From an uncultured Pseudomonadales bacterium (lineage in GTDB: Bacteria; Patescibacteriota; Microgenomatia; UBA1400; UBA1449), in NCBI GenBank assembly GCA_964386355.1, contig CAYLQQ010000002.1:45374-109373 (forward strand): 64,000 bases of DNA, read 5' to 3'. Numbering within the stretch: position 1 is the first letter of the stretch; each line of letters starts with the position of its first letter. Positions 1 through 32,010 of this stretch are shown here, piece by piece. Under the pieces are notes generated by a model. It did no database searches and was not told the DNA's origin. It saw nothing but the letters and a program-made list of their open reading frames with translations. The translations under genes were made by a program, and so were the position numbers.

Positions 1-465
1 TGCCCAAATAATGCCAACAATATCAAAACTCGTTGTTATGAAAGTGATCGCTTCAGTATGGACGGGATGGACTGCAAATATAAGCCCAGTAAATAGTGCT
101 AGAACCTTGTCATTTGTAAGCTGCAATGCAAGTTTATATACAAGCCATGTACAGATAAAATGGATAAAAATGGCAAATACATGGTAATAAATAACGTTTT
201 GGCCAAATATATACTGAGTGCCTGCATAATATACGCTTCTTAGGGGCCTATAGGTTCCAACATGAGCTTTAGGTACCTGTCCAAGCATGAGTGATTTGAT
301 ATCTGCAGGCGGTTTGATTTCCTTCCAGTCAATTATAAAATCAGGATCATCTCCCACAAAGCCATTTAAAAACGTATTGCTATACGGTATACATACTGCA
401 ACTAAAAGAACCAAGAATGCGTTACCCACAAACTTGCGGAAACGTGTGTAAAATGCAGTTTTCAT
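1..465 (-). CDS. GT-C fold membrane glycosyltransferase (PMT_2/ArnT-like), N-terminal 155 aa only; the gene continues past the window start
   Basis: Reverse-strand ATG at 465-463 (ATGA overlap with the stop of the upstream CAP-domain gene). Translation MKTAFYTRFRKFVGNAFLVLLVAVCIPYSNTF...DDPDFIIDW...YRPLRSVLYAGTQYIFGQNVIYYHVFAIFIHFICTWLVYKLA has a TM helix, an Asp-rich first loop, then an xRPL...HxxN block as I recall for family-39/83 GT-C enzymes. Confidence 0.5.
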   Translation of the reverse strand, partial: MKTAFYTRFRKFVGNAFLVLLVAVCIPYSNTFLNGFVGDDPDFIIDWKEIKPPADIKSLMLGQVPKAHVGTYRPLRSVYYAGTQYIFGQNVIYYHVFAIFIHFICTWLVYKLALQLTNDKVLALFTGLIFAVHPVHTEAITFITTSFDIVGIIWA

Positions 466-1250
466 ACGATTGGAAACGAGTTTGTGGTTATGGCGTACAG
501 GGTGCAGCTACTTATCAATAATATCATATTTAGCCAGTACCTCTTTACAAACAAAGAAAAACGCATTTTGTAGATCTGTTTTTTTATATCAAATACAAGC
601 ATGATGATAACTAAGCCGATAATTACCCCAAGTACTAACTTAGTAGAGTTGAAATAATTACTTGAAACATTTGATACAGGGGGATATGTTTGAGATGTTT
701 GATTTACAATGACTGCTTGTTGTGAATTGATCCAAGCTAGTTCTTCATCAGAAAATGGCGTAGCATAAAGCATGACTACAAGTATGCTACTTTTTCCATT
801 GATATTTCCCTGTATTGTCGCAATACCAGCTTGGGTAAACTTATCGTTTAAAATATTTGCTCTATGTCCAGGAGATTGCATCCAGGCTGTGACAAGGTCT
901 TCTTCCTTATAATAGTCTTTTCCCAGATTTTCACCCGCGTATTTATATACGTATCCTGCTTTTGTGATAAACTGCCAGGGTGTCTGACTGTTGGGAGATA
1001 AGTGGTCCCAATAATTGTTCTGTATCATGTCATTGGCTTTTAGTAGAGCAGCCTGATTAAGCTTGTTGTCGATTTGGAAATTTTGAAGATTGTACTGAGT
1101 ACGCTGTTGGTTCACAAGTTCGACTATTTGTGATGACTCAAGATTGAGAGCAATACCTAATACCGGCGAGTATGAACCAACTGATCTTGAGTATAAAAAA
1201 ATCTGCACGGTAATAATGAATAATAGGCATATATTACAGAGCTTTGGCAT
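462..1250 (-). CDS. CAP/SCP (YkwD-like) domain protein, membrane anchored
   Basis: YWDHLSPNSQTPWQFITKAGYVYKYAGENLGKDYYKEEDLVTAWMQSPGHRANILNDKFTQAGIA is a CAP/SCP core. The tracked ORF begins at a TTG (1349) that sits 3 nt from the divergent start at 1353. The internal ATG at 1250 gives a clean signal-anchor (MPKLCNICLLFIITVQIFL); the ATG at 1310 is an alternative. There is a C-terminal TM as well. Confidence 0.6.
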   Translation of the reverse strand: MPKLCNICLLFIITVQIFLYSRSVGSYSPVLGIALNLESSQIVELVNQQRTQYNLQNFQIDNKLNQAALLKANDMIQNNYWDHLSPNSQTPWQFITKAGYVYKYAGENLGKDYYKEEDLVTAWMQSPGHRANILNDKFTQAGIATIQGNINGKSSILVVMLYATPFSDEELAWINSQQAVIVNQTSQTYPPVSNVSSNYFNSTKLVLGVIIGLVIIMLVFDIKKQIYKMRFSLFVKRYWLNMILLISSCTLYAITTNSFPIV

Positions 1251-1352
1251 GCTATGGTATTTATTGAAGCTATCTATTAGCTTTGGTATAGTAAACTTAA
1301 ATTTGTTCATAGCAACTACTATTAAACTGCAGCAAAGTAAAATTAGCAAATT

Positions 1353-1886
1353 ATGGAATCTGACTTTTTGGACAAGCTACTTATTGTGCTCCTGATAACT
1401 ATACTACCTGTTAGCTTTTTTATTGCCTCCAATGCTCAAAAAAAATATGAATTAGAGCAAAAAGCACAAATCGAAAAAGAACAAGTGGCAAAAGTAACAC
1501 AAACAGTTGAACAGCTACGGGCGCGTGATGCTATTTCAATGCCTGAGATAGAAATAGATCAGGTATATTATGCTACTGAATCGAGTAAATTGGTCGTTAC
1601 GGGAAGAGCACCAAAGAAAAATACAGTGGTTATGGTATCAACTGTTTTTTTACAAGGATTAAAGGATGATAAGGAGGCAAGTGCATCGGTAAAAACAAAA
1701 TCAACACCGAATGTTCTGGGACAAGCAGTTGATGTTGTGGCTATTGAAACGGATGCAAATGGTGACTTTACGTTTGTAAAAAAAGTTGACGAAGAACAAG
1801 CGGGACTAGTTGATGTGCGTTTTGATCAAGATAAAAGTAGTGCTTCAGTCCAGTATGATATAAATACACAAAAGCAGGTATTTTAA
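1353..1886 (+). CDS. hypothetical membrane-anchored protein
   Basis: ATG start, one N-terminal TM (LLIVLLITILPVSFFIA), then Lys/Glu-rich helix and a beta-rich C-terminal part. No recognisable motif. Confidence 0.4.
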   Translation: MESDFLDKLLIVLLITILPVSFFIASNAQKKYELEQKAQIEKEQVAKVTQTVEQLRARDAISMPEIEIDQVYYATESSKLVVTGRAPKKNTVVMVSTVFLQGLKDDKEASASVKTKSTPNVLGQAVDVVAIETDANGDFTFVKKVDEEQAGLVDVRFDQDKSSASVQYDINTQKQVF

Positions 1887-1894
1887 AAGGAGTA

Positions 1895-4150
1895 TCAATA
1901 CTCCGGAAGGATATTATAAACAATTGTTCCCTCGTATAGATCAGATGGCTGAAGATAATTTACCTCTATTGCATAGCTTACATAAACCGTTTTTTCTTCA
2001 GCTTCTTGTGAGGACATGACGCTGTGTGAGATGGTGCTTAAAGGACCAAATTTTGCTGATGCATTTGACCACCCCTCCACTCTTGTATCAGATGTATTTA
2101 CGCCCACCCAGCCCGTATTAACGTTCCGTACTATGCCATTTGGTGCTGACCATATTTGTGGGGTTTGCCATGTGACAGAAGTTGCGGCAAATTCATCAAT
2201 ATTATTATCGGGGTAGTTCCCCTGCATTTGATTATACAGTTTGACGCTAACATCATAGCCATAGTCTGTATTGCTGTTTACCGTCAGCTTGTGAGATCCG
2301 AACTTCGGTACGCCAACACTGAGATTACCGAATGGAAGGGTAGTGTGGGTTGTGTTTATATTTGTTGTAATTCCGTTGTTTGAAGTTCCTGTAGGTACAC
2401 CTTCGATAGCAAAAGATAAGCTAGGAGTAGCTCGATGGTATATATCAAATGTTTGTCCATCACTTTGTACTGCTGAAAATGATTGTAGAAGCAAGAGATC
2501 TGAATATATGGTTTGCTCAATGGGGTATGTTGTATAGTCGCCTGCGGTTTTATTGATTCGGATGTAGTACAGAGGATGTCCACCATTTACGGTTGATTTA
2601 GTCCATTCATTCGGAACAGTATAGTACACATTTCCAGCACTTGTAAATGTGCTAGCTCCTGAGTTGCTATTAGATATTGCAAGGGTAGACCAGGTATCAC
2701 AAGGAGTATTGATATCCAAGTTTGAGCCGCAGTAAGACCAAACGGTTATAATACCAGAACCTGCACCTTTGGTTTGTAGTTGGGTATTTACACCGCTAAA
2801 CTGCGTGTGATTACCCAGGTAAAGGTAATCATTAGAATTGTCAAAAATCTGGTAGCTGCCCTGATCAAAACTGGCATTATCTTGACTATCAGCCAAGTAC
2901 TCATTTGTATCAGATGCCAAGCCACCTCTTGCCAGCTGTTTCCAGGTGTTTGAGCTGTCATAAAACCAAGCTTGTGAAAATGGTATTAAATTGGCATTAT
3001 AATCTGTATTGATCGTACGGTTTGTGCCTTCGATAGAGAAATTGGTTGGTACATTGCTTGTGCGCCAGTTTCTAAATTTGAATATAGGGGCATATCTTGA
3101 GTACGTTTCCCCATCCAAATTAAAAGAAATTATATTGTTTGAAGTTATTAGCGGGTAACTGTTTTGGGTTTGGTTAAAGTAGTCGCTTTCTCCTGTATTG
3201 GTAAACTCACTAGCAGAACTCCAGGCTGAACCTACAGATATTTTGCCAAATAAGCTGTCTGGTTGCCATAAATCTACAGCATAGCTTTTTGCTTCATTAC
3301 CGCTTAAGCTATTATCGTCAGTAATCTGAAAAACATAAGTATACGTATATGACTGTCCTCCAGAAAGACTATCATCAGTAATCAAACCGGCTGTAATTAC
3401 ATTTTCATCATTCTGGTATAAAAATTCATTATTTGGGAAAAAGCTGGGTACTTCTAGGGCATGTATCATGTAATCATTATCAGTACCGGTAGCTGGGTCA
3501 GAACCGGTGAGTGTTAGGCTAATCCCAGGAGCTGTGTATGTAATGTCAGCCACGCTCTGAATAGCTGCGCTTGGTGTGACGGTACCAGGAGCTGTATCAT
3601 GATCAGAAATAAAAGCATTTTCATCAAATAAGCTTGGTGCAAACGAAATGTAAGGTCCAGTCATTCCAGTACCAGCTGTGGATGAGCTAAAGGCACCATG
3701 CACCACAATCCTATCGGGATATATGGTATAGATTTGGGTATATTCTCCATCATTACTAGAACCGCAAGCTCCGTCTGTAAAATCATAGAGATCCCCGCTT
3801 ACTGAGATGACAATTCTTGTTTGAGTAGATTCCAAAAGGTGTATTGAAGCATTACTTTCACAAAACATGCTGTTTGTATCTCGTGTGACTAAACCCATTC
3901 CATATAACCGATTTGAAGTGCTACTAGTATCGATAATATTAGTGCTGCTTGAGCTGGGAATAACTAAGCTCGATAGTACTCCCCCGAGATCGCTCCTAAA
4001 CGTTGCTTTCCAGCTCGGGGTGGAATTACTGTTAACAACAATTGTGGTTGCAGTTATAGAGTCTACGCTCACTGATGCGGCATATACTTGTTGAGTGCAG
4101 GTCAGAAAGGTGAACGATATGAGAAATAGAAAGATACATGTTAATCGCAT
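1895..4150 (-). CDS. large secreted Ser/Thr/Asn-rich surface protein (751 aa) with a C-terminal domain shared with the downstream paralog
   Basis: Signal peptide MRLTCIFLFLISFTFLTCTQQVYA; very high S/T/N/G content. C-terminal ~140 aa (LPFGNLSVGVPKFGSHKLTVNSN...NTGWVGVNTSD...VYVSYAIEVNYLQPSDLYEGTIVYNILPEY) aligns with the C-terminus of the 369-aa protein at 4229-5338. Confidence 0.6.
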   Translation of the reverse strand: MRLTCIFLFLISFTFLTCTQQVYAASVSVDSITATTIVVNSNSTPSWKATFRSDLGGVLSSLVIPSSSSTNIIDTSSTSNRLYGMGLVTRDTNSMFCESNASIHLLESTQTRIVISVSGDLYDFTDGACGSSNDGEYTQIYTIYPDRIVVHGAFSSSTAGTGMTGPYISFAPSLFDENAFISDHDTAPGTVTPSAAIQSVADITYTAPGISLTLTGSDPATGTDNDYMIHALEVPSFFPNNEFLYQNDENVITAGLITDDSLSGGQSYTYTYVFQITDDNSLSGNEAKSYAVDLWQPDSLFGKISVGSAWSSASEFTNTGESDYFNQTQNSYPLITSNNIISFNLDGETYSRYAPIFKFRNWRTSNVPTNFSIEGTNRTINTDYNANLIPFSQAWFYDSSNTWKQLARGGLASDTNEYLADSQDNASFDQGSYQIFDNSNDYLYLGNHTQFSGVNTQLQTKGAGSGIITVWSYCGSNLDINTPCDTWSTLAISNSNSGASTFTSAGNVYYTVPNEWTKSTVNGGHPLYYIRINKTAGDYTTYPIEQTIYSDLLLLQSFSAVQSDGQTFDIYHRATPSLSFAIEGVPTGTSNNGITTNINTTHTTLPFGNLSVGVPKFGSHKLTVNSNTDYGYDVSVKLYNQMQGNYPDNNIDEFAATSVTWQTPQIWSAPNGIVRNVNTGWVGVNTSDTRVEGWSNASAKFGPLSTISHSVMSSQEAEEKTVYVSYAIEVNYLQPSDLYEGTIVYNILPEY

Positions 4151-4228
4151 ACAATGATGATAACAAAGCTAATCTAAAAAAACACCCTCTCGTTGAGAGG
4201 GTGTTTATCTAATCCGTTCTAGAAATGT

Positions 4229-5338
4229 TTAGTAGGTAGGCAAGGCGTTGTAGTACAGTATTCCTGTGTAGGTATCAGCTGGCTGATACACATTTACCTC
4301 TAATGCATAACTGACATAATCAGAAGCACCTCCGTTATCTGAGACTAAACTCTTCATAACAGTTGATTCAGTAAGATCCGAAACTCCTGCAAATTGTGCA
4401 GTATCGTCTCCAGTCCAGTTTTCTACTTCATTATCTGATGTGTTGTATCCTACCCATCCAGTGTTTGTGTTAGCAGCATTACCAGTAGGTTCAGCCCAAA
4501 CTGAGTGGCTTCCAACGTGTGGGAACGGGTCAATATTGTTGGCACTATATACTCCGGTCATGGGAGTAACCATCTTAATAGATACTGTATAACCAGCCTG
4601 TGTGTTTGTGGTCACGGTCAGTTTATGAGCAGCATATTTGGGTGTGCCTGCAGTCAAAGCTCCAAATGGCAGAGTATTATAAGAGGATGACACTGACGTT
4701 GTAACGCCATTATGTGCCTCATTATTTGTCACACCATCCACAACAAATGTGAAGGTAGCATCGACACGGGCAGTCACGCTAACTTGCTCAACAAAAGTGA
4801 TTGATGCAACAGCAGAATCTATAAGATTATTGGCATCAGTGCTTGCATCACTATATGTACCTACTTTTACGTAACATGTGCCGGTTGATGAGTTACCAAC
4901 TGCATTACATCCTGAAATAGCAGGATTGGTAATGTTATTGATTGTAAAAGAAAATAATTGGCCACCTACTCCGAATGTTTGACCAGTAGAGTTAAGTTGA
5001 AAATAGTTTGACCCAGCAGAGCCACCTAAAGACCAAGTACCATCTATTCCGACGGGACTTACTAAAGCGTTAGTTGAAACTCCTGCTAAACCTAGACCGG
5101 TTGGTATAGTACAAGCTCCTCCCCACGTAGGTTCCTTACAGTAGGTAACTGTTATATTTTTGTAAGTTCCTGCAGTACTTGTAGTAAATTCAAATACATG
5201 ACTAGTCGAAACAGCAGGGCGTGGATCTGATAGTTTTGCTTTAAAACTTCGTAAAATACTTGCAGCACCCACCGGACGGACTAATAAAAGTCCTAAAACG
5301 AGTGCCCCAAAAAATGATAATAAGCGGGCAGTTTTCAT
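4229..5338 (-). CDS. secreted protein (369 aa), paralog of the C-terminal domain of the upstream 751-aa protein
   Basis: Signal peptide MKTARLLSFFGALVLGLLLVRPVGA; C-terminal LPFGALTAGTPKYAAHKLTVTTN...NTGWVGYNTSD...YVSYALEVNVYQPADTYTGILYYNALPTY matches the neighbour block for block. Confidence 0.6.
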   Translation of the reverse strand: MKTARLLSFFGALVLGLLLVRPVGAASILRSFKAKLSDPRPAVSTSHVFEFTTSTAGTYKNITVTYCKEPTWGGACTIPTGLGLAGVSTNALVSPVGIDGTWSLGGSAGSNYFQLNSTGQTFGVGGQLFSFTINNITNPAISGCNAVGNSSTGTCYVKVGTYSDASTDANNLIDSAVASITFVEQVSVTARVDATFTFVVDGVTNNEAHNGVTTSVSSSYNTLPFGALTAGTPKYAAHKLTVTTNTQAGYTVSIKMVTPMTGVYSANNIDPFPHVGSHSVWAEPTGNAANTNTGWVGYNTSDNEVENWTGDDTAQFAGVSDLTESTVMKSLVSDNGGASDYVSYALEVNVYQPADTYTGILYYNALPTY

Positions 5339-5482
5339 ATGTTCACCTCCCCTCTCAAACGGTCTATAAAAGTATACCGTTTAAGCAAATTAATAGTATG
5401 TATCCATGTTAGTAAGTTTGATGAGCTGTTGTCAAGAGGGTAATTGAGGAGTTATCTATAGTCGCTGATAAGACCGAGCTAA

Positions 5483-7180
5483 ATGATAGAAGATATTAAA
5501 ATTGTATCAGGATCAAGTATCATTTATACTCAGAGCATGGTACTTTCTGACGATGCATTACTAGAACAGTCACTCCAGGATATTGGGATTAAATCTTACA
5601 AGGATCCCTTTGGTATGCCTGACACGTTTATATATGATCCCATAAAACCCATACAAGAAAAAGAAGGCAGCAAACGGCAAGTCCGCTTTACCCAACTGCT
5701 GAACTATTCGTTTCCAGAAGAGATAGAAGGTGGAGTAGCCGAGGTAGGGGAGGTGATATATATCGGCGATGGGGTGTGCCGGGTGGTCGGCTTATCGAAA
5801 GCTGAAATCGAAGATGTAATCAATGTTAAAACAGGTAAGGGTTGGGAAAAGGCACTCATCTTAGGTATAGAAGATACCCATATTGAGTCAGTTGTTCTTG
5901 GAGATTATTCAAATATCAAACAGGGCGACCAGGTAATCGCAACTAACTCAAGGTTAAAAGTGCCTGTTGGTAAAACTCTGTATGGCCGGGTAATTAGTCC
6001 TCTCGGAGTGCCTATAGATGGTAAGGGCAAGATTGAACCCGAAACGTACCGGGATGTGGAATTTCCAGCCCCATCAGTTATGGAGCGTGAGCCCATTTTT
6101 GAACCCCTAAAAACAGGTGAGATGGTTATAGATGCTACGATCCCTATCGGTTTAGGCCAGAGAGAATTGGTGATAGGAGACCGAAAAAGCGGGAAGAGCA
6201 GGTTTGCTATCGACATCATTTCAAACCAAAAAGGCAGAAACATGATCTGTGTATATGTTGGAGTTGGAATGCAGGCTGCTAAGGCAAAGGCTACGCTTGA
6301 GCTTTTGGAATCTAGAGAGGCCATGGATTACACCATCATGGTTGTATCTACTTCTGATGATCCTCCGTCACTACAGTACATCTCTCCATATGTAGGTACT
6401 GCCATAGCGGAGCATTTTATGTATGCAGGCAAAAATGTCTTGATTATTTATGATGATCTATCAAAACAAGCAAAAGCTTATCGGCAGGTTTCATTGCTGT
6501 TGAAACGCTCGCCAGGTCGAGATGCATATCCTGGTGATATCTTCTTTTTACATTCCAGGCTACTTGAACGCTCATCAAAAATGCATCGCAAGCTGGGAGG
6601 AGGTGCCATTACTGCCCTACCCATTGCCGAAACCCAGTCCGGTGATATATCTGATTACATCATCACCAATCTCATGTCTATTACAGATGGGCACATTTAT
6701 CTGGATGCAAATATGATGCATGAGGGAATTTTACCGGCAGTAAACTCACAAGCCTCAGTTTCCCGTATCGGGAGTAAGGTCCAGTCAAGTTTGCTAAAAA
6801 AGGTAGGAGAGCTTGCTTCGAGAGCTCTAGCCCGGTATGCAGAGTTAAAATCATTTGAAACGATTAACACCGAAGTTGCAGAGGAAACACTTCGGGATAT
6901 ACGGAGAGGCAAAAAAGTAAAGGAAATGTTAGCTCAAGTATCATCAGTAAATTATTCTACAGATGAGATAGTAGTTTTGCTCCATTTAGTAACTTCAGAT
7001 AAGCTGGAGATGATCGATCTTACAGACCTGTCTAAGTTTAAGCTGGAATTCCTGGAATACTATAGAAAAATTGTGACTCCTGAATTTAGAGGTAAATGTG
7101 AATCGTCAAAAGACCTCAAAGATATCGATGGGGAAGTGTCTGTTATGCTGGATAGGTTTTTAAAGCAACGTACAAGTTAG
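5483..7180 (+). CDS. atpA: F-type ATPase alpha subunit, with about 45-65 aa N-terminal extension
   Basis: P-loop GDRKSGKS, then DDLSKQAKAYRQVSLLLKRSPGRDAYPGDIFFLHSRLLERS, typical of alpha. The N-terminal beta-barrel core starts at EVGEVIYIGDGVCRVVGL, after extra N-terminal residues. Confidence 0.9.
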   Translation: MIEDIKIVSGSSIIYTQSMVLSDDALLEQSLQDIGIKSYKDPFGMPDTFIYDPIKPIQEKEGSKRQVRFTQLLNYSFPEEIEGGVAEVGEVIYIGDGVCRVVGLSKAEIEDVINVKTGKGWEKALILGIEDTHIESVVLGDYSNIKQGDQVIATNSRLKVPVGKTLYGRVISPLGVPIDGKGKIEPETYRDVEFPAPSVMEREPIFEPLKTGEMVIDATIPIGLGQRELVIGDRKSGKSRFAIDIISNQKGRNMICVYVGVGMQAAKAKATLELLESREAMDYTIMVVSTSDDPPSLQYISPYVGTAIAEHFMYAGKNVLIIYDDLSKQAKAYRQVSLLLKRSPGRDAYPGDIFFLHSRLLERSSKMHRKLGGGAITALPIAETQSGDISDYIITNLMSITDGHIYLDANMMHEGILPAVNSQASVSRIGSKVQSSLLKKVGELASRALARYAELKSFETINTEVAEETLRDIRRGKKVKEMLAQVSSVNYSTDEIVVLLHLVTSDKLEMIDLTDLSKFKLEFLEYYRKIVTPEFRGKCESSKDLKDIDGEVSVMLDRFLKQRTS

Positions 7181-7273
7181 TTCAAAGTACAAAATACATC
7201 AATATCTTCAATTATTAGTGGAAATTATTATTTTTATCGCAAACTTATAAAGCATTATTGACAAAAATAACGT

Positions 7274-8158
7274 ATGGCCAAAATAAATGAAATAAAGGAG
7301 CAGCAAATTGTGGTATCTGCAGTAGGAGAATTTTCAAATTCTTTGCAGCAGATAGCGACCATGCGGATGGTATCGTTGCGGAAAGTGGTTTTAGCAAGCC
7401 GGCGTTTTGTGGATGAAGCTACAGTTATCTTACGCGATTTAAAACGCGAACGGCAAGCACAGCTTATTGGAAAGCTAAAGAAAATAGATAAACGCTTTGC
7501 CAAACGGAGAACTCAGCGGGAAGCGATTATTGTTTTATCTTCCTACCAAGGGTTGTGTGGTTCTTATAATGTAGAAATATTTAACCGAATTGATAAGGTA
7601 CTTCCTGTACATCTAGAAGCTGATTATTTTGTTATTGGTTCAAAAGGTCAGGATTATTTTCGCAGGTTACTGCGTAAACATCCGAAACTCAATTTTTACC
7701 CCTATGATATTCCAGAGAGTGTTGGGATAGAGCACTTGCGCCGGCTTATAAATATGTTTCCTTACTATGATCATATTCACCTTATTTATTCCAAGTATGT
7801 GAATACAACTACCAGAGATGTTGTTTTTCTTGAATTAGTTGAACCTGCCTTTGAGGAGGATGAAAAGAAAGAAGAGCCAGAAAAAGAAGATAATAAAGGC
7901 GCATATATTTTTGAACCAGACCTTGAAGAACTTATTGAAAATGTAGCTAACAAATTACGGTATGCCCTTTTTCGGCAGCAAATATTGGATTCAAAACTAT
8001 CACTGTACAGTTCTCAAATGGTTGCTATGCAAAATGCGACGGATAATGCAAAGACACTTCTCAAAGACCTACAAATGGAATATAACAAAGCCCGTCGTAA
8101 GAATATTGATAAAAAAATACAAGAAGTCCAAGCAGGCCGAGCCCTGTGGGCAAATTAG
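7274..8158 (+). CDS. atpG: F-type ATPase gamma subunit
   Basis: N-terminal helix pattern IATMRMVSLRKVVLASRRF and C-terminal LQMEYNKARRKNIDKKIQEVQAG match the gamma termini; 294 aa. Confidence 0.75.
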   Translation: MAKINEIKEQQIVVSAVGEFSNSLQQIATMRMVSLRKVVLASRRFVDEATVILRDLKRERQAQLIGKLKKIDKRFAKRRTQREAIIVLSSYQGLCGSYNVEIFNRIDKVLPVHLEADYFVIGSKGQDYFRRLLRKHPKLNFYPYDIPESVGIEHLRRLINMFPYYDHIHLIYSKYVNTTTRDVVFLELVEPAFEEDEKKEEPEKEDNKGAYIFEPDLEELIENVANKLRYALFRQQILDSKLSLYSSQMVAMQNATDNAKTLLKDLQMEYNKARRKNIDKKIQEVQAGRALWAN

Positions 8159-8164
8159 CTATCC

Positions 8165-11973
<3,809 letters not shown>

Positions 11974-12062
11974 GTGCCAAAATGCAGTTTACCAATGAAA
12001 ACAGCAAGGCCGCATTAATTTAATTATATTACTGCTCTGCACAATCTTTTTCATTCTTATTT

Positions 12063-12323
12063 ATGGCAGAAAACAAACCACAAGTTCACGTGATTATTGT
12101 TGATCCTGATAAGGTAGTATATGAAGGTGATGCGTTACGAATATTTGTCCCAGGAAAGATCGCAGAGCTTGCTTTGTTACCTGAACATACTCCTTTGTAT
12201 AGCGAGCTTACCGCAGGTCCAGTTATTGTAGAGGAAGTATCAGGAGCAAAGCAGGAAATTAAAATAGACGGGGGAGTGGCAAAAATGCAAAATAATGAAC
12301 TGCATATATTAATTGGATACTAA
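12063..12323 (+). CDS. atpC: F-type ATPase epsilon subunit, short form (86 aa, N-terminal beta-sandwich only)
   Basis: VHVIIVDPDKVVYEGDALRIFVPGKIAELALLPEHTPLYSELTAGPVIVEE matches the epsilon N-domain. The ORF stops after about 86 residues, so the C-terminal helical hairpin is absent. Confidence 0.75.
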   Translation: MAENKPQVHVIIVDPDKVVYEGDALRIFVPGKIAELALLPEHTPLYSELTAGPVIVEEVSGAKQEIKIDGGVAKMQNNELHILIGY

Positions 12324-17150: not shown

Positions 17151-17221
17151 ATCTTAAGTTCCTCTTGCAATCTGTTTCCAATCTCTATCATAATGGATGG
17201 GTTACTAATTTCTATTTACGT

Positions 17222-18166
17222 ATGCCTGCCAAAAAAACTGTAAAAAAGACTGCCTCAAAAAAAGTAGCAGTCAAGAAAACTCTCAAAACTAACCCTTTAT
17301 CGATCGCTGATAATAAGTACTTAGTGATGGTGCTTATGGTATGCGCACTTATTCCTCTTGCCATGATCATGCAAGTATTTTTCAGCAACTTCAGGACAAT
17401 ACAGAGAAACATGCCTGAGGTATTTGTGGGGGAAGAATCAGGAGTTAATCGAGTCTTTGTTACAAGCACAAGGTATGATGGCAATTTAGGTGGGCTTGCT
17501 GGTGCAGATACTAAATGCCAAGACATTGCTAACGCAAAAGGTATGGGTGGTACATGGAAAGCGTGGTTAAGTGATAGTAAAACTTCAGCTAGTTCAAGAC
17601 TTATTCATTCGAATAACCCATATGTATTACTGGATGGATCTATTGTTGCAAATAACTGGACAGATCTAACTGACGGTACACTACAAACACCAATAAATAT
17701 GGATGAAAACGGTTATCAGACAATAAACGAAATGGCTGTATGGACAAGTACTAAAGTTGATGGGAGTACATATTCTCCATATGCTAATAATACATTATGT
17801 AATGATTATACGGTCGCTGATGAAAATTATTCTATGTGTGGTATGGGTTATGTGAACAATAATGAGTGGACTGATTGGTCTTCGGATTGGTGTAAGGGCA
17901 CAAATAGGTTATATTGTTTTGAACAGATCGGCAATCCTCCAACACCCACACCTAGTCCAACTCCAGTAGTATGTTCTAAGGGCATGGCTTATCCTCACTA
18001 TAAAAACGTCAAAGGAGTGTGTACGAGAATTGATGAATGCGGCAGAACAACATGTGATCCTTTAAGGACACCAAAACCGACAAAATCCGCAGTAGTGAGA
18101 CCAACAAAATTACCAGTTGCTACGGTTAATCCAATCATACCTTTACCAACTCAAAACCCATACTAA
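17222..18166 (+). CDS. secreted cysteine-rich protein with a Pro/Thr-rich tail
   Basis: The tracked ORF starts at TTG 17165; ATG at 17222 (MPAKKTVKK...) followed by a TM. Block VFVTSTRYDGNLGGLAGADTKCQDIANAKGMGGTWKAWLSDS...LYCFEQ with 8 Cys; then a PTPTPSPTP linker and a second Cys cluster. It resembles what I recall as a DUF1554-type secreted domain, weakly held. Confidence 0.45.
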   Translation: MPAKKTVKKTASKKVAVKKTLKTNPLSIADNKYLVMVLMVCALIPLAMIMQVFFSNFRTIQRNMPEVFVGEESGVNRVFVTSTRYDGNLGGLAGADTKCQDIANAKGMGGTWKAWLSDSKTSASSRLIHSNNPYVLLDGSIVANNWTDLTDGTLQTPINMDENGYQTINEMAVWTSTKVDGSTYSPYANNTLCNDYTVADENYSMCGMGYVNNNEWTDWSSDWCKGTNRLYCFEQIGNPPTPTPSPTPVVCSKGMAYPHYKNVKGVCTRIDECGRTTCDPLRTPKPTKSAVVRPTKLPVATVNPIIPLPTQNPY

Positions 18167-28778: not shown

Positions 28779-30809
<2,031 letters not shown>

Positions 30810-30885
30810 GAGGGTGATAGATTATAGGGTTTGAATACTGATCGATAAAACTAGTATACTTAAACTAATACATTTTACTGCCCAT

Positions 30886-31404
30886 ATGTTTGATACTTTA
30901 TTTATATACACCCTAACAGTAATTATTTACATTGGCATTCTTTTCTTTTTCTTTTGGAGGCGTAATAGAAAACAAGAAGAACAGCTTAATGCTTTTTTGA
31001 AAGAAGCTAAAGAAAAACTTGAATTGCATAGAAAAGAGGCAAAAGTTCAAGCCTCAGGTAAAGTTGCCAAAGCATTTGAGCTGATCAAACGTTTACAAGG
31101 TGTTGCTGAGGATTTGGAGGGTCAAGTACAGACAGAGTATGAAAAAGTACTGGAAGAAGCCCAGCAGCAGAAAAAAGATATCATCGCTGAAGCACGCAGA
31201 CAATCTAAAGAAATACTTGAAGGAGCTGATGGAGAGCTCGCTCAGTATAAAGAAGAACGTAAGCGGGAAATTGAGAAAAACCTAGTGAAATTAGTAATGA
31301 GTGTCACTGAAAAGGTAGTCGGTAGGGGATTAACGCGTGAAGACCAAGTTGATCTGATCAGGGAAGCTGTTGAGGAAGTCAGGAAAGAAAAGGGACATTT
31401 ATAA
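30886..31404 (+). CDS. atpF: F-type ATPase subunit b
   Basis: One N-terminal TM (IYTLTVIIYIGILFFFFW), then a ~140-aa charged coiled coil; sits between the c-like gene and atpH. Confidence 0.7.
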   Translation: MFDTLFIYTLTVIIYIGILFFFFWRRNRKQEEQLNAFLKEAKEKLELHRKEAKVQASGKVAKAFELIKRLQGVAEDLEGQVQTEYEKVLEEAQQQKKDIIAEARRQSKEILEGADGELAQYKEERKREIEKNLVKLVMSVTEKVVGRGLTREDQVDLIREAVEEVRKEKGHL

Positions 31405-31431
31405 ATTGCTTACGTTTACTCTAAAGCATAT

Positions 31432-32010
31432 ATGGAAAAAGGTGTTGATAAATTAGCAAAACAACTGCTCTCTCAAATCTATACCACATCAGAACTTAAA
31501 AAAACTTCTCTGGCGTTAGAAGAACTATCACACTCTTCAACTTTTAAGGCAGAAACGCGCGCTATAGTAGCTAATCCTAAATTAGCTGATGAAGCTAAAG
31601 CAACACAATTACTAAAACTGTTTGATGAAATAGATATTCCTATAATCCAATCGTTTTTTTCAGGGGTTTTTAGTGAAGGAGAGTTCTGGATGTTTTCCTC
31701 CAAACAATTCGATTACTTCGACGAATTTGTAAGAGCTTTTCAGCTGGCTACTGAGAATGTACTAGTGGTATCGATGGTTACTGCTATTGAGCTTTATCCG
31801 CGTGAGCAGATGGTTTTTGCGCAAGAACTAGGGAAAAGCCTCGAAAGACAAGTTGTTTTGGACTTTAAACTTAATTCTGGAATTATCGGCGGAGCTCAGA
31901 TTCGAATCGGAAACCTAGTATTTGACTATACGTTGCGCTCTAAGTTTAATCAGTTTGAAAGGCAATGGATAAGTCGCATGGCAAAAACAGCTGCTTTTGT
32001 GGGGGAGTAA
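31432..32010 (+). CDS. atpH: F-type ATPase delta subunit (OSCP)
   Basis: C-terminal IIGGAQIRIGNLVFDYTLRSKFNQF fits the delta signature (GG...D.S..); length 192 aa. Confidence 0.65.
   Translation: MEKGVDKLAKQLLSQIYTTSELKKTSLALEELSHSSTFKAETRAIVANPKLADEAKATQLLKLFDEIDIPIIQSFFSGVFSEGEFWMFSSKQFDYFDEFVRAFQLATENVLVVSMVTAIELYPREQMVFAQELGKSLERQVVLDFKLNSGIIGGAQIRIGNLVFDYTLRSKFNQFERQWISRMAKTAAFVGE

What the first reader, a model, noticed from the sequence alone, without database searches (positions are those of the whole stretch)
1..5338. Surface module: two paralogous Ser/Thr-rich secreted proteins with a shared uncharacterised C-terminal domain, flanked by a CAP-domain protein and a GT-C-like glycosyltransferase
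Seen in sequence:
- The 751-aa and 369-aa proteins both have signal peptides and extreme S/T/N/G content.
- They end in a ~140-aa domain that aligns block for block: LPFG.L..G.PK...HKLTV..NT..GY.VS.K, then NTGWVG.NTSD, then YVSYA.EVN..QP.D.Y.G...YN.LP.Y.
- I cannot assign this domain to a known family. The logic (secreted protein, conserved C-terminal module) resembles cell-wall-association domains such as WxL, but the motifs differ.
- A PMT_2/ArnT-like GT-C enzyme starts at 465, and a second candidate sits inside the atp operon.

Inference: O-glycosylated surface or S-layer-like proteins with a novel attachment domain.
Basis: partly seen in the sequence, partly recalled or inferred. Interest (0 to 1): 0.55.

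Follow-up and report, generated by a model that had tools for sequence, protein, structure and literature searches.

The report
Pam-type pilus subunit gene pair
Two neighbouring genes of an uncultured ultra-small (CPR/Microgenomatia) bacterium most likely encode subunits of the recently described Pam pilus, probably a shaft subunit and a tip adhesin, and not an S-layer with a new wall anchor.

Summary
Two secreted, Ser/Thr-rich proteins (369 aa and 751 aa, minus strand) share a C-terminal region of about 190 aa (42% identity, E 3e-43).

The domain has no Pfam family. It matches NCBIfam NF058581, "Pam pilus system pilin subunit, C-terminal", end to end but below the curated cutoff: E 2.8e-6 for the window protein, down to 1e-10 in relatives.

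Pam pili were described in a 2026 preprint on Ca. Mycosynbacter amalyticus. Subunits have a nine-strand N-terminal sandwich, a donated linker strand and an incomplete Ig-like C-terminal domain, and the genes lie next to ATP synthase genes. All these features are found here.

The predicted C-terminal domain most resembles subunits of donor-strand filaments. The linker is the most conserved segment of the small protein's family. Long relatives, including the 751-aa protein, lack a conserved linker and carry variable N-terminal modules.

My reading: the small protein is the major shaft pilin and the large one a tip adhesin.

A putative membrane-anchored chaperone lies 4.6 kb beyond the window and belongs to the WxL-interacting protein family (DUF916). 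This hints at a link to Gram-positive WxL clusters. Homology of the two C-terminal domains is not shown.

Glycosylation by the neighbouring GT-C-like enzymes is plausible but untested.

The parts
4229..5338 (-). Protein B, 369 aa (mature about 35.8 kDa, pI 4.6). Pam-type pilin, proposed major shaft subunit.
   Evidence: ORF. NF058581 CPR_Pam_pilin_C: E 2.8e-6, residues 221-369 against model positions 4-148 of 148. 56 full-length homologs in Microgenomates/Beckwithbacteria. AF2 model with mean pLDDT 91.
5261..5338 (-). B signal peptide (residues 1-26, ...VGA|AS).
   Evidence: Hydrophobic N-terminus. Low pLDDT helix at residues 7-17.
4790..5260 (-). B N-terminal domain (residues 27-183): nine-strand beta-sandwich with two Cys pairs (C67/C76, C144/C155).
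   Evidence: Nine strands in the AF2 model. C144 and C155 are nearly invariant. Cys positions.
4754..4789 (-). B linker, proposed donor strand (residues 184-195, EQVSVTARVDAT). It has an alternating hydrophobic pattern and is unpaired in the monomer models.
   Evidence: Coil in both AF2 models. The most conserved 12-mer of the family lies at residues 187-198, 3.63 bits. Conserved in 146 short family members, not in 33 long ones.
4232..4753 (-). B C-terminal domain (residues 196-369): Pam-pilin-C-like Ig-like domain, proposed strand acceptor.
5406..5435 (-). Promoter-like site upstream of B (TTGACA-18-TAACAT).
   Evidence: Consensus scan only; the count in the region is not above shuffles.
4180..4206 (-). 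Terminator-like hairpin (12-bp stem plus T-run) between B and A.
   Evidence: An equivalent hairpin plus U-tract follows the small pilin gene in L001, L003, L005 and L006 despite different sequences.
1895..4150 (-). Protein A, 751 aa (mature about 79 kDa). A variable N-terminal region of about 550 aa plus a Pam-like C-terminal domain. Proposed tip adhesin (acceptor-only subunit).
   Evidence: ORF. CTD is 42% identical to B. The N-terminal region has no family hit and no detectable similarity to positional orthologs, whose CTDs are 45-56% identical. No conserved linker in long members.
1898..2425 (-). A C-terminal domain (residues ~576-751).
   Evidence: BLASTP and tblastn. Included in profile A2.
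1353..1886 (+). 177-aa protein: N-terminal TM anchor, helical linker and a ~110-aa beta domain. Syntenic with the pilin pair; role unknown (possible anchor or assembly factor).
   Evidence: ORF and TM prediction. Orthologs at the same position and orientation in L003 and L006, 33-37% identity. No family hit.
462..1310 (-). CAP/YkwD-like extracellular domain protein with flanking TM segments. Its stop overlaps the GT-C start by 4 nt.
   Evidence: Pfam CAP 71.9 bits. TIGR02909 YkwD E 1.5e-33, below cutoff. Syntenic in L003 and L006.
1..465 (-). First 155 codons of a 585-aa polytopic protein (9 TM) with C-terminal TPR repeats. GT-C-like (PMT/TMTC-like) candidate pilin O-glycosyltransferase.
   Evidence: Translation. 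Weak PMT, PMT_2 and ArnT hits. Full length from L008. 'FVGDDPDF' lies in the first loop.
8165..10555 (+). 796-aa polytopic membrane protein inserted between atpG and atpD. Second GT-C-like candidate.
   Evidence: At least 12 predicted TM segments. No family hit. Ortholog in L004 has a precomputed weak PMT_2 hit.
5483..8158 (+). atpA and atpG, divergent from B. This is the ATP-synthase neighbourhood typical of pam loci.
   Evidence: Pfam on orthologous genes. The paper's neighbourhood analysis.

Best explanation
A and B are subunits of a Pam-type pilus, the donor-strand-exchange filament recently found in CPR bacteria.

Proposed mechanism:
1. Both proteins are exported by Sec and their leaders are cleaved.
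2. B is the abundant shaft subunit. Its conserved linker strand, between the N-terminal sandwich and the C-terminal domain, is inserted into the open Ig-like C-terminal domain of the preceding subunit. This gives a linear head-to-tail polymer.
3. A has the acceptor domain but no conserved donor linker, and carries a large, fast-evolving N-terminal region. It most likely sits at the distal tip as the host-binding adhesin, analogous to FimH or PapG.
4. Before polymerisation the acceptor groove is probably capped by a membrane-anchored two-domain Ig-like protein of the WxLIP/DUF916 family, encoded 4.6 kb beyond the window's left end.
5. The neighbouring GT-C-like membrane proteins probably O-glycosylate the Ser/Thr-rich subunits.

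Shown here: the homology signal, the domain architecture, the fold class, the conservation pattern and the synteny.
Inferred: polymerisation, the tip and shaft roles, the chaperone role and glycosylation.
For: Sequence:
- NF058581 'Pam pilus system pilin subunit' matches B at E 2.8e-6 over model positions 4-148 of 148, at the extreme C-terminus.
- 30 of 45 B orthologs match it, best 2.4e-9. 42 of 97 diverse family members match, best 1.1e-10.
- The more distant locus L007 matches at 36.2 bits, E 5.6e-9, and also gives a PamT N-terminal hit at 2.9e-7.

Architecture compared with the cryo-EM description:
- Signal peptide, a nine-strand N-terminal sandwich, a linker and an all-beta C-terminal domain (AF2 pLDDT 91.1).
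- Paired cysteines.
- B's mature mass is about 35.8 kDa, in the range of PamB (38.7 kDa as listed).

Linker:
- It is the most conserved segment, as the paper reports for PamA and PamB: 3.32 bits, against 2.10 for the NTD and 2.77 for the CTD (paper).
- It stays unpaired in the monomer models.

Context:
- The pilin pair lies next to ATP synthase genes in the window and in L001, L003, L005 and L006. The paper reports the same for pam operons.
- Homologs are named Beckwithbacteria or Microgenomates, a class in which the paper reports distant Pam homologs.

Roles:
- A terminator-like hairpin follows the small gene in five loci.
- B orthologs are 43-46% identical over their full length. A orthologs share only the CTD.
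- Long family members carry DUF2341, LamG or beta-propeller N-terminal modules.
- The donor linker is conserved in 146 short members and not in 33 long members.

Chaperone candidate:
- L008 18801..19757 has a signal peptide, two beta domains, a C-terminal TM segment and a basic tail.
- Pfam WxLIP_PGBD scores 31.8 bits, above the 27.3 cutoff.
- tblastn gives 1e-10 to annotated DUF916 proteins.
- The best PDB sequence hit is EfmWxLIP1, E 4.4e-5.
- In L007 two such genes alternate with two pilin genes.

Glycosylation:
- Each of the five loci has a GT-C, TMEM260 or Wzy_C-type membrane protein within a few genes of the pilins.
- PamA shows extra density on Ser356, modelled with a docked galactose.
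Against: - All NF058581 scores (20-41 bits) are below NCBI's cutoff of 55. Protein A alone gives no hit.
- I could not obtain the PamA or PamB sequences or structures. They are absent from the PDB copies, so there is no direct pairwise or structural comparison.
- No PamC, PamD, PamR or PamT family hit was found for any window or flanking protein.
- The putative chaperone is separated from the pilins by CAP, GT-C and PPDK genes and lies outside the window.
- No multimer prediction could be run, so strand exchange is not modelled here.
- A's N-terminal region was not modelled.
- The GT-C assignments are sub-threshold.
Confidence: 0.72

Rival explanations
1. This is a wall-associated surface complex of the WxL/Csc type. 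A and B do not polymerise. Their C-terminal domains dock, non-covalently, to the membrane-anchored WxLIP-like protein and/or to peptidoglycan, displaying A's N-terminal domains.
For: - The gene logic is the same as in WxL clusters: a small protein, a large protein with the shared C-terminal domain and N-terminal adhesin modules, and one WxLIP with a C-terminal TM helix.
- The genome's 318-aa protein is a WxLIP_PGBD member.
- The published interpretation of WxL is peptidoglycan attachment.
Against: - No WxL Pfam hit in A, B or 97 relatives.
- hmmsearch finds nothing, and hhalign finds only the C-terminal hairpin at P 0.013.
- The domain does match the Pam pilin model, and Pam pilins are experimentally filaments.
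- The strongly conserved unpaired linker in B has no role in a simple docking model.
- The peptidoglycan-binding role of WxL itself rests largely on prediction and docking.
Confidence: 0.13
2. These are S-layer or glycoprotein coat proteins. A and B form a 2-D lattice, and the C-terminal domain is the lattice-forming or anchoring module.
For: - High Ser/Thr content, acidic pI, a probably strong promoter and a terminator for B.
- One Foldseek hit to a Haloferax S-layer protein among many Ig-like hits.
Against: - No SLH, S-layer or other anchoring family hit.
- The CTD's fold neighbours are filament subunits.
- The Pam model hit and the pam-like synteny.
- The S-layer hit is one of 1248 generic matches.
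Confidence: 0.05
3. These are pilins of another known type: sortase-assembled Gram-positive pilins or type IV pilins.
Against: - Both proteins end in ...LPTY/LPEY with no LPXTG sorting signal, TM segment or basic tail.
- No sortase is seen in the locus.
- The leaders are ordinary Sec type, not class III prepilin signals.
- No alpha-helical N-terminus is present in the model.
Confidence: 0.02

Closest known systems
Pam pilus of Ca. Mycosynbacter amalyticus (PamA WP_260763287.1, PamB WP_260763280.1; bioRxiv 10.64898/2026.03.03.709456; NCBIfam NF058581 and NF058579)
   Same: - Sec leader, nine-strand N-terminal sandwich, highly conserved linker, Ig-like C-terminal domain ending at the protein's C-terminus, and paired cysteines.
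- Two paralogous pilins encoded side by side.
- ATP-synthase neighbourhood and restriction to CPR.
- A membrane-anchored, two-Ig-domain putative chaperone.
- Evidence of O-linked modification in PamA, matched here by GT-C-like neighbours.
   Different: - Only sub-threshold sequence similarity (27.5 bits against a cutoff of 55). This is the Microgenomatia branch, which the paper reached only with a language-model search.
- The second pilin here is much larger (751 aa) with a hypervariable N-terminal region and no conserved donor linker. It looks like a two-domain tip adhesin, whereas the paper proposes the single-domain PamT as the tip.
- No PamC, PamD, PamE, PamR or PamT family hits.
- The locus is interrupted by CAP, GT-C/TPR and PPDK genes.
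- The conserved extra neighbours (177-aa anchor-like protein, CAP protein) are not described in the paper.
WxL / Csc cell-surface clusters of Firmicutes and Actinobacteria (small WxL, large WxL, WxLIP = DUF916+DUF3324+TM; PMC9772566, PMC10599100; PDB 9i1y and 9i25)
   Same: - One small and one large secreted protein share a C-terminal all-beta domain of about 160-190 aa.
- The large protein carries N-terminal lectin or adhesin modules.
- The partner protein has two Ig-like domains and a C-terminal TM helix, and AF2 predicts that one of its strands inserts into the shared domain.
- The CPR partner protein is a detectable member of WxLIP_PGBD.
- Motif-level resemblance: T-x-A-G-[WY]-x-[LV], I-D...W..P, and the C-terminal Y-x-G-T-L-x-[LY].
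   Different: - No Pfam WxL hit. The two Trp-x-Leu motifs are absent, with Tyr in their place.
- Profile-profile comparison gives only P 0.013 over the last hairpin.
- WxL is interpreted in the literature as a peptidoglycan binder, not a pilin.
- Small WxL proteins have no separate N-terminal sandwich domain.
Chaperone-usher pili (Fim, Pap, CFA/I, Csu): FimA-type shaft subunit and FimH/PapG-type two-domain tip adhesin
   Same: - The C-terminal domain's fold class.
- A conserved donor strand with alternating hydrophobic residues.
- An acceptor-only, two-part adhesin at the tip.
- A terminator after the major subunit gene.
- A PapD-like L-shaped two-Ig chaperone concept.
   Different: - No usher and no outer membrane.
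- The donor strand is an interdomain linker, not an N-terminal extension.
- Each subunit has an extra N-terminal sandwich.
- The chaperone is membrane-anchored.
- No sequence homology was detected: no PapD_N or fimbrial Pfam hits.
TasA / TasA-like fibres and archaeal donor-strand filaments (Sulfolobus 0406 threads, Pyrobaculum bundling pili)
   Different: No sequence similarity. The domain composition differs, and there is no SipW-type signal peptidase or dedicated partner genes here.
Protein O-mannosyltransferase-type GT-C enzymes (PMT, TMTC, TMEM260) and Wzy_C-type pilin O-oligosaccharyltransferases (PglL/PilO)
   Same: - A polytopic membrane protein with an acidic first-loop motif (FVGDDPDF) and C-terminal TPR repeats, as in TMTC-type enzymes (architecture recalled from my own knowledge).
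- Adjacency to Ser/Thr-rich Ig-like substrates.
- TMEM260_N and Wzy_C proteins occupy the equivalent place in L001 and L005.
   Different: Only sub-threshold PMT, PMT_2 and ArnT hits. The donor, the acceptor and the activity are all unknown.

Membership tests
Pam pilus pilins (CPR) | C-terminal domain matches the family model NF058581 (CPR_Pam_pilin_C) | tested here: inconclusive
   B scores 27.5 bits, E 2.8e-6, with full model coverage 4-148 of 148, but below the curated cutoff of 55. A has no hit. 72 of 142 relatives match at E<=0.01, best 1.1e-10. L007 pilin scores 36.2 bits. This is statistically significant distant homology, not curated membership.
Pam pilus pilins (CPR) | Sec signal peptide, with no prepilin or sortase signals | tested here: met
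   Hydrophobic leaders with VGA|AS and VYA|AS. No LPXTG and no C-terminal TM segment.
Pam pilus pilins (CPR) | Two all-beta domains: a nine-strand N-terminal sandwich plus a C-terminal Ig-like domain joined by a single linker strand | tested here: met
   For B, AF2 (pLDDT 91) gives nine strands in residues 30-183, an unpaired linker at 184-195 and an all-beta CTD. A was not modelled.
Pam pilus pilins (CPR) | Linker (donor strand) and its binding site are the most conserved parts | tested here: met
   Linker 3.32 bits per position, against NTD 2.10 and CTD 2.77. The top 12-mer lies at residues 187-198. Not met for A-type long members, which I read as acceptor-only tip subunits.
Pam pilus pilins (CPR) | C-terminal domain has the truncated Ig-like fold of donor-strand pilins | tested here: met
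Pam pilus pilins (CPR) | Assembles into helical filaments by donor-strand exchange | not testable with these tools
   No multimer prediction or experiment was available.
Pam pilus pilins (CPR) | Operon with membrane-anchored PapD/FimC-like chaperones (PamC/D), and PamT, PamE and PamR | tested here: inconclusive
   No NCBIfam Pam accessory hits. A 318-aa protein with a signal peptide, two beta domains and a C-terminal TM segment lies 6.5 kb from gene A, outside the window. In the related locus L007, such genes alternate with pilin genes.
Pam pilus pilins (CPR) | Neighbourhood of ATP synthase genes; CPR lineage | tested here: met
   atpA is divergent from B. The same adjacency is found in L001, L003, L005 and L006. 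Homologs are named Beckwithbacteria or Microgenomates.
WxL domain proteins (PF13731) | C-terminal domain with two Trp-x-Leu motifs, matching the Pfam WxL model | tested here: not met
   No Pfam hit in A, B or 97 relatives at E<=1. hmmsearch is negative. hhalign gives probability 3%, P 0.013, over the last hairpin only.
WxL domain proteins (PF13731) | Cluster of small WxL + large WxL + WxLIP (DUF916/DUF3324/TM) | tested here: met
   By analogy: small B, large A and a WxLIP_PGBD member (31.8 bits, above the 27.3 cutoff) in the same gene neighbourhood. Definition taken.
Chaperone-usher pili | Outer-membrane usher and periplasmic PapD-family chaperone | tested here: not met
   No usher or PapD_N hits in the window or flanks. 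Precomputed Pfam lists for five loci show none.
GT-C glycosyltransferases (PMT/ArnT/TMTC-like) | Match to a PMT, PMT_2 or ArnT model; polytopic topology with an acidic first-loop motif | tested here: inconclusive
   PMT 20.0 bits (cutoff 22.7), PMT_2 18.1 bits (cutoff 26.1), ArnT E 2e-3. The full-length protein has 9 TM segments plus TPR repeats. 'GDDPDF' follows TM1. The 796-aa protein has topology only, plus the ortholog's weak PMT_2 hit.
CAP / YkwD superfamily | CAP domain (PF00188) | tested here: met
   71.9 bits, E 1.1e-19, residues 76-191.

The most novel reading that the evidence does not exclude
Pam pili of CPR bacteria and the WxL/Csc surface clusters of Firmicutes and Actinobacteria may be one ancient, usher-less donor-strand system of monoderm-type envelopes.
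- The WxLIP (DUF916-DUF3324-TM) protein would be the membrane-anchored chaperone.
- 'Small' subunits would be shaft pilins.
- 'Large' subunits would be tip adhesins that keep only the acceptor domain.

If so, WxL proteins would be pilins or strand-exchange polymers rather than peptidoglycan binders, and Pam pili would not be exclusive to CPR.

A further unexcluded reading is that dedicated GT-C enzymes encoded beside or inside the atp operon glycosylate these pilins.
Probability: 0.3. Interest if true: 0.75.

Novelty: new member of a known kind. Interest (0 to 1): 0.45.

Why it matters
CPR bacteria are thought to live attached to host cells, and how they find and hold hosts is largely unknown.

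Pam pili were described only in 2026, in one cultivated Saccharibacterium. This locus shows what the system looks like in Microgenomatia, which have no cultured members.
- The shaft pilin is conserved.
- The large subunit has a hypervariable, lectin-type N-terminus and looks like the host-specificity determinant.
- The partner genes (WxLIP-type chaperone, GT-C enzymes, CAP protein, a small anchored protein) were not discussed in the paper.

The large subunits are natural candidates for predicting host range from metagenomes.

The WxLIP link, if it holds, would connect a CPR novelty to a widespread and poorly understood Gram-positive adhesion system, and would suggest a testable assembly mechanism for both.

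For annotation, about 1500 protein clusters are currently labelled 'hypothetical' because they fall below the NF058581 cutoff.

Tried and rejected
- Pfam, PDB sequence and PDB profile searches with A, B and the B family found nothing for the shared domain.
- I could not retrieve PamA or PamB. The paper's supplement has no sequences, and the structures (given as 25PZ and 25QA) are not in the PDB copies.
- afdb50 was unavailable, so the structural test against AFDB WxL models could not be run.
- The homolog search with full-length A returned only 2 proteins. The search with the 177-aa protein returned only 6, so I did not model it.
- WxL homology was tested by three routes:
  - hmmsearch of the CTD profile against actinobacterial WxL proteins was negative.
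  - hhalign of the CTD profile against a single small WxL-like protein was negative.
  - hhalign of a 173-sequence CTD alignment against a 48-sequence actinobacterial WxL alignment aligned only the terminal hairpin, P 0.013.
  I therefore rejected it as a demonstrated relationship and kept it as a hypothesis.
- A Deinococcus DUF916-like locus, tried as a possible bridge, matched neither profile.
- NCBIfam found no PamC, PamD, PamR or PamT-like proteins in the window or flanks.
- Recent private tandem duplication is rejected: 1520 representatives, with the small + large pair conserved in at least 5 loci.
- Sortase and type IV pilin readings are rejected on the sequence features.

Full report
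**What is there**

The left 5.3 kb of the window carries five genes.
- The 5' end of a polytopic membrane protein gene: minus strand, ATG at 465, running off the window.
- A CAP-domain protein at 462..1310/1349, minus strand. Its stop overlaps that ATG.
- A 177-aa protein at 1353..1886, plus strand.
- Protein A, 751 aa, at 1895..4150, minus strand.
- Protein B, 369 aa, at 4229..5338, minus strand.

B is divergent from atpA at 5483.

A and B have Sec-type leaders. They have the two highest Ser+Thr contents of the 51 large ORFs in the window, 24% and 23% against 12 +/- 4%. They share a C-terminal region of about 190 residues at 42% identity, E 3e-43, ending at the last residue of both. There is no third copy in the window.

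**Identity of the shared domain**

Pfam has nothing for A or B. NCBIfam release 20 (June 2026) matches B residues 221-369 to NF058581, 'CPR_Pam_pilin_C, Pam pilus system pilin subunit'. The match covers model positions 4-148 of 148 at E 2.8e-6 and 27.5 bits, below the curated cutoff of 55.

The signal is reproducible across the family.
- 30 of 45 B orthologs match, best 2.4e-9.
- 42 of 97 diverse relatives match, best 1.1e-10.
- The pilins of the more distant locus L007 match at 36.2 and 25.6 bits.
- In every case shown the match covers the whole model and ends at the protein's C-terminus.

The source of the name is a bioRxiv preprint (10.64898/2026.03.03.709456). Cryo-EM of filaments from the Saccharibacterium Ca. 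Mycosynbacter amalyticus identified two pilins, PamA (55 kDa) and PamB (38.7 kDa).
- Each has a Sec leader, a nine-strand N-terminal beta-sandwich and a single linker strand.
- The C-terminal open Ig-like barrel accepts the linker of the neighbouring subunit (donor-strand exchange).
- The linker and its binding site are the most conserved parts.
- There are paired cysteines and an extra density on Ser356.
- The operon encodes PapD/FimC-like chaperones with a C-terminal TM helix.
- ATP synthase genes are conserved neighbours.
- Distant homologs in Microgenomatia were found only with a language-model search.

**Tests of that assignment**

1. *Architecture.* AF2 on a 45-sequence alignment gives a confident B model (pLDDT 91.1). 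It has exactly nine strands in residues 30-183, an unpaired segment at 184-195 and an all-beta C-terminal domain. B has two Cys pairs, and C144/C155 are nearly invariant.
2. *Conservation.* The linker is the most conserved region of the B family, at 3.32 bits per position against 2.10 for the NTD and 2.77 for the CTD. The best 12-mer is SVTARVDATFTF, residues 187-198.
4. *Context.* B orthologs sit beside ATP synthase genes in four other loci, and a larger CTD-bearing paralog follows each of them. The locus identical to the window (L008) shows the same.
5. *Lineage.* Named homologs are from Beckwithbacteria and the Microgenomates group.

I could not compare directly with PamA or PamB. Their sequences and structures are not in the supplement or in the PDB copies.

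**Family size and the two classes**

An exhaustive HMM search with the linker+CTD profile finds 1520 cluster representatives at E<=1e-3, and 966 at <=1e-10. Among the 150 best hits listed, the domain ends at the C-terminus in nearly all. Two length classes appear, about 350-410 aa and 500-1100 aa.

Short members conserve 'VTVTAxVDP' immediately before the CTD, at 2.1-3.4 bits per position (n=146). In long members (n=33, including A) those ten positions are unconserved, at 0.5-1.2 bits. The first CTD strand, 'PSLTFTIxGV', remains conserved in them.

Long members carry diverse N-terminal modules: DUF2341, Laminin_G_3, a PD40 propeller and MG2. A's own N-terminal 550 aa has no family hit. It has no detectable similarity to its positional orthologs in L001, L003 and L006, although their CTDs are 45-56% identical to A's. 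B orthologs in the same genomes are 43-46% identical over their full length.

A strong terminator-like hairpin plus T-run lies between B and A. An equivalent structure with a different sequence follows the small gene in all four other loci.

**Mechanistic reading**

This section is inference. B is the abundant shaft pilin that donates its linker. A is an acceptor-only subunit with a rapidly diversifying binding region, that is, a tip adhesin in the manner of FimH or PapG. In the paper's model the tip is the single-domain PamT, which also lacks a linker.

**Accessory genes**

None of the window proteins matches a Pam accessory model. The window is the reverse complement of part of a longer contig, L008 (window position = 14151 minus L008 position).

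Beyond the window's left end lie the rest of the GT-C-like gene (585 aa, 9 TM segments plus TPR repeats), then PPDK, a 254-aa anchored protein, a 318-aa protein and a 412-aa Big/dockerin protein.

The 318-aa protein has a signal peptide, two beta domains, a C-terminal TM helix and a basic tail. That is the PamC/D architecture. Three results place it in the WxL-interacting protein family.
- It passes Pfam's threshold for WxLIP_PGBD (DUF916): 31.8 bits against a cutoff of 27.3.
- It hits annotated DUF916 proteins of Actinobacteria at 1e-10.
- A profile of five CPR homologs has E. faecium WxLIP1 (9i25/9i1y) as its only significant PDB sequence match, E 4.4e-5.

The same 254/318/412 trio is found near the pilins in L003 and L005. 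In L007, two such TM-anchored proteins alternate with two pilin genes.

**The WxL connection**

Published bioinformatics on WxL/Csc clusters (PMC9772566, PMC10599100) describes the following.
- One small and one large protein share a C-terminal beta domain.
- The large protein carries N-terminal adhesin modules.
- One WxLIP has two perpendicular Ig-like domains plus a TM helix, and AF2 predicts that one of its strands inserts into the WxL domain beside a loosely attached N-terminal strand.

That is the same logic as in Pam. The Pam preprint does not mention WxL or DUF916.

I tested whether the two C-terminal domains are homologous. In Actinobacteria, DUF916 genes sit next to small secreted proteins and a large GH43/ricin protein with a bona fide Pfam WxL domain. 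I collected 80 actinobacterial relatives. HMM-sequence comparison gave nothing. Profile-profile comparison aligned only the terminal hairpin, at P 0.013. No CTD family member hits Pfam WxL.

Several motifs resemble each other by eye, but homology of the pilin and WxL domains is not demonstrated. It stays a hypothesis. The membership of the putative chaperone in WxLIP_PGBD is solid.

**Glycosylation**

The hits to PMT, PMT_2 and ArnT are sub-threshold, and the 796-aa protein has no hit of its own.

The context is consistent, however. Every one of the five loci has a polytopic GT-C, TMEM260 or Wzy_C-type protein within a few genes of the pilins. The PamA map shows an O-linked density on Ser356, modelled with a docked galactose. 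I rate pilin O-glycosylation by these enzymes as plausible, about 0.4, and untested.

**Verdict**

The finding is a real module that public annotation leaves as hypothetical proteins. It belongs to a system described in 2026, so it is a new member of a known kind.

Features worth following up:
- the tip-adhesin class of long subunits;
- the WxLIP-type chaperone, and with it a possible bridge to Gram-positive WxL clusters;
- the conserved CAP, 177-aa and GT-C neighbours.

Noticed in passing
window 28848..30809 (+): A 653-aa protein with a signal peptide, duplicated Big_1 Ig-like region, Gly-rich linker and a C-terminal hairpin matching ATP synthase subunit c. Pfam PF00137 scores 24.1 bits, at its cutoff, and several NCBIfam subunit-c models hit at about 1e-5. 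The GRNP loop is present, but the helix-2 ion-binding carboxylate is replaced by Leu here and in the L005 ortholog. It sits where atpE would be, directly upstream of the b and delta genes. Homologs (tblastn for L005) or positional counterparts with a weak Big_1 hit occupy the same place in L001, L005 and L006. It may be the 'tail fibre-like protein' that the Pam paper finds linked to atp and pam genes. It could be a surface protein using a c-like hairpin as anchor, or a candidate pilus anchor.
   Followed up: partly
window 5483..12323 and 28848..32010: The atp operon is split into [alpha, gamma, 796-aa polytopic protein, beta, epsilon] and, 17 kb away, [Big_1-c-like fusion, b, delta]. I did not see a canonical a or c subunit gene among the ORFs I annotated in the window. 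An insertion between gamma and beta is conserved in L003/L004, and a 556-aa gene lies between beta and epsilon in L006.
   Followed up: partly
L008 17908..22256 (4-8 kb beyond the window's left end): A conserved trio lies next to the pilin region: a 254-aa N-anchored protein, the 318-aa WxLIP_PGBD protein with a C-terminal TM segment, and a 412-aa secreted Big-domain protein ending in a dockerin type I module (25.9 bits, above the 22.9 cutoff). A 550-aa protein follows. Proteins of the same sizes, order and family hits occur in L003 and L005.
   Followed up: partly
L009, L010, L011 (Clavibacter, Cellulosimicrobium and Streptomyces plasmids): Actinobacterial DUF916 genes are flanked by ~210-aa secreted proteins annotated 'hypothetical' that align at 32-35% with a bona fide WxL domain. 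Large GH43, ricin or LamG proteins lie alongside. These are WxL/Csc-type clusters outside Firmicutes, partly unannotated. The Streptomyces large WxL ORF at L011 2822..4852 is missing from the PLSDB gene table.
   Followed up: partly
window 1353..1886 (+) and 462..1310 (-): The 177-aa N-anchored beta-domain protein and the membrane-flanked CAP/YkwD protein keep their position and orientation beside the pilin pair in three genomes (window, L003, L006), at only 31-39% identity. This suggests a functional link that the Pam paper does not describe. JGI names one homolog of the 177-aa protein 'NqrC', which looks spurious.
   Followed up: partly
window 5483..7180 (+): The atpA product is 565 aa, longer than the 541-aa alpha subunits of L001 and L005. 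The L006 ortholog is 664 aa.
   Followed up: no
window 17165..18166 (+): A 333-aa protein with weak DUF1554 / endostatin-like (LenA/LenB family) hits lies downstream of an ABC-2 / DUF4340 transporter module. It may be another surface protein.
   Followed up: no
P0100 (family member, 652 aa): One CTD family member fuses a seven-bladed beta-propeller (TIGR04275, E 8.5e-81) to the Pam-like C-terminal domain. Another family member gives a WxLIP_HBD (DUF3324) hit at 2e-5. Both illustrate modular N-terminal swapping in the long class.
   Followed up: no
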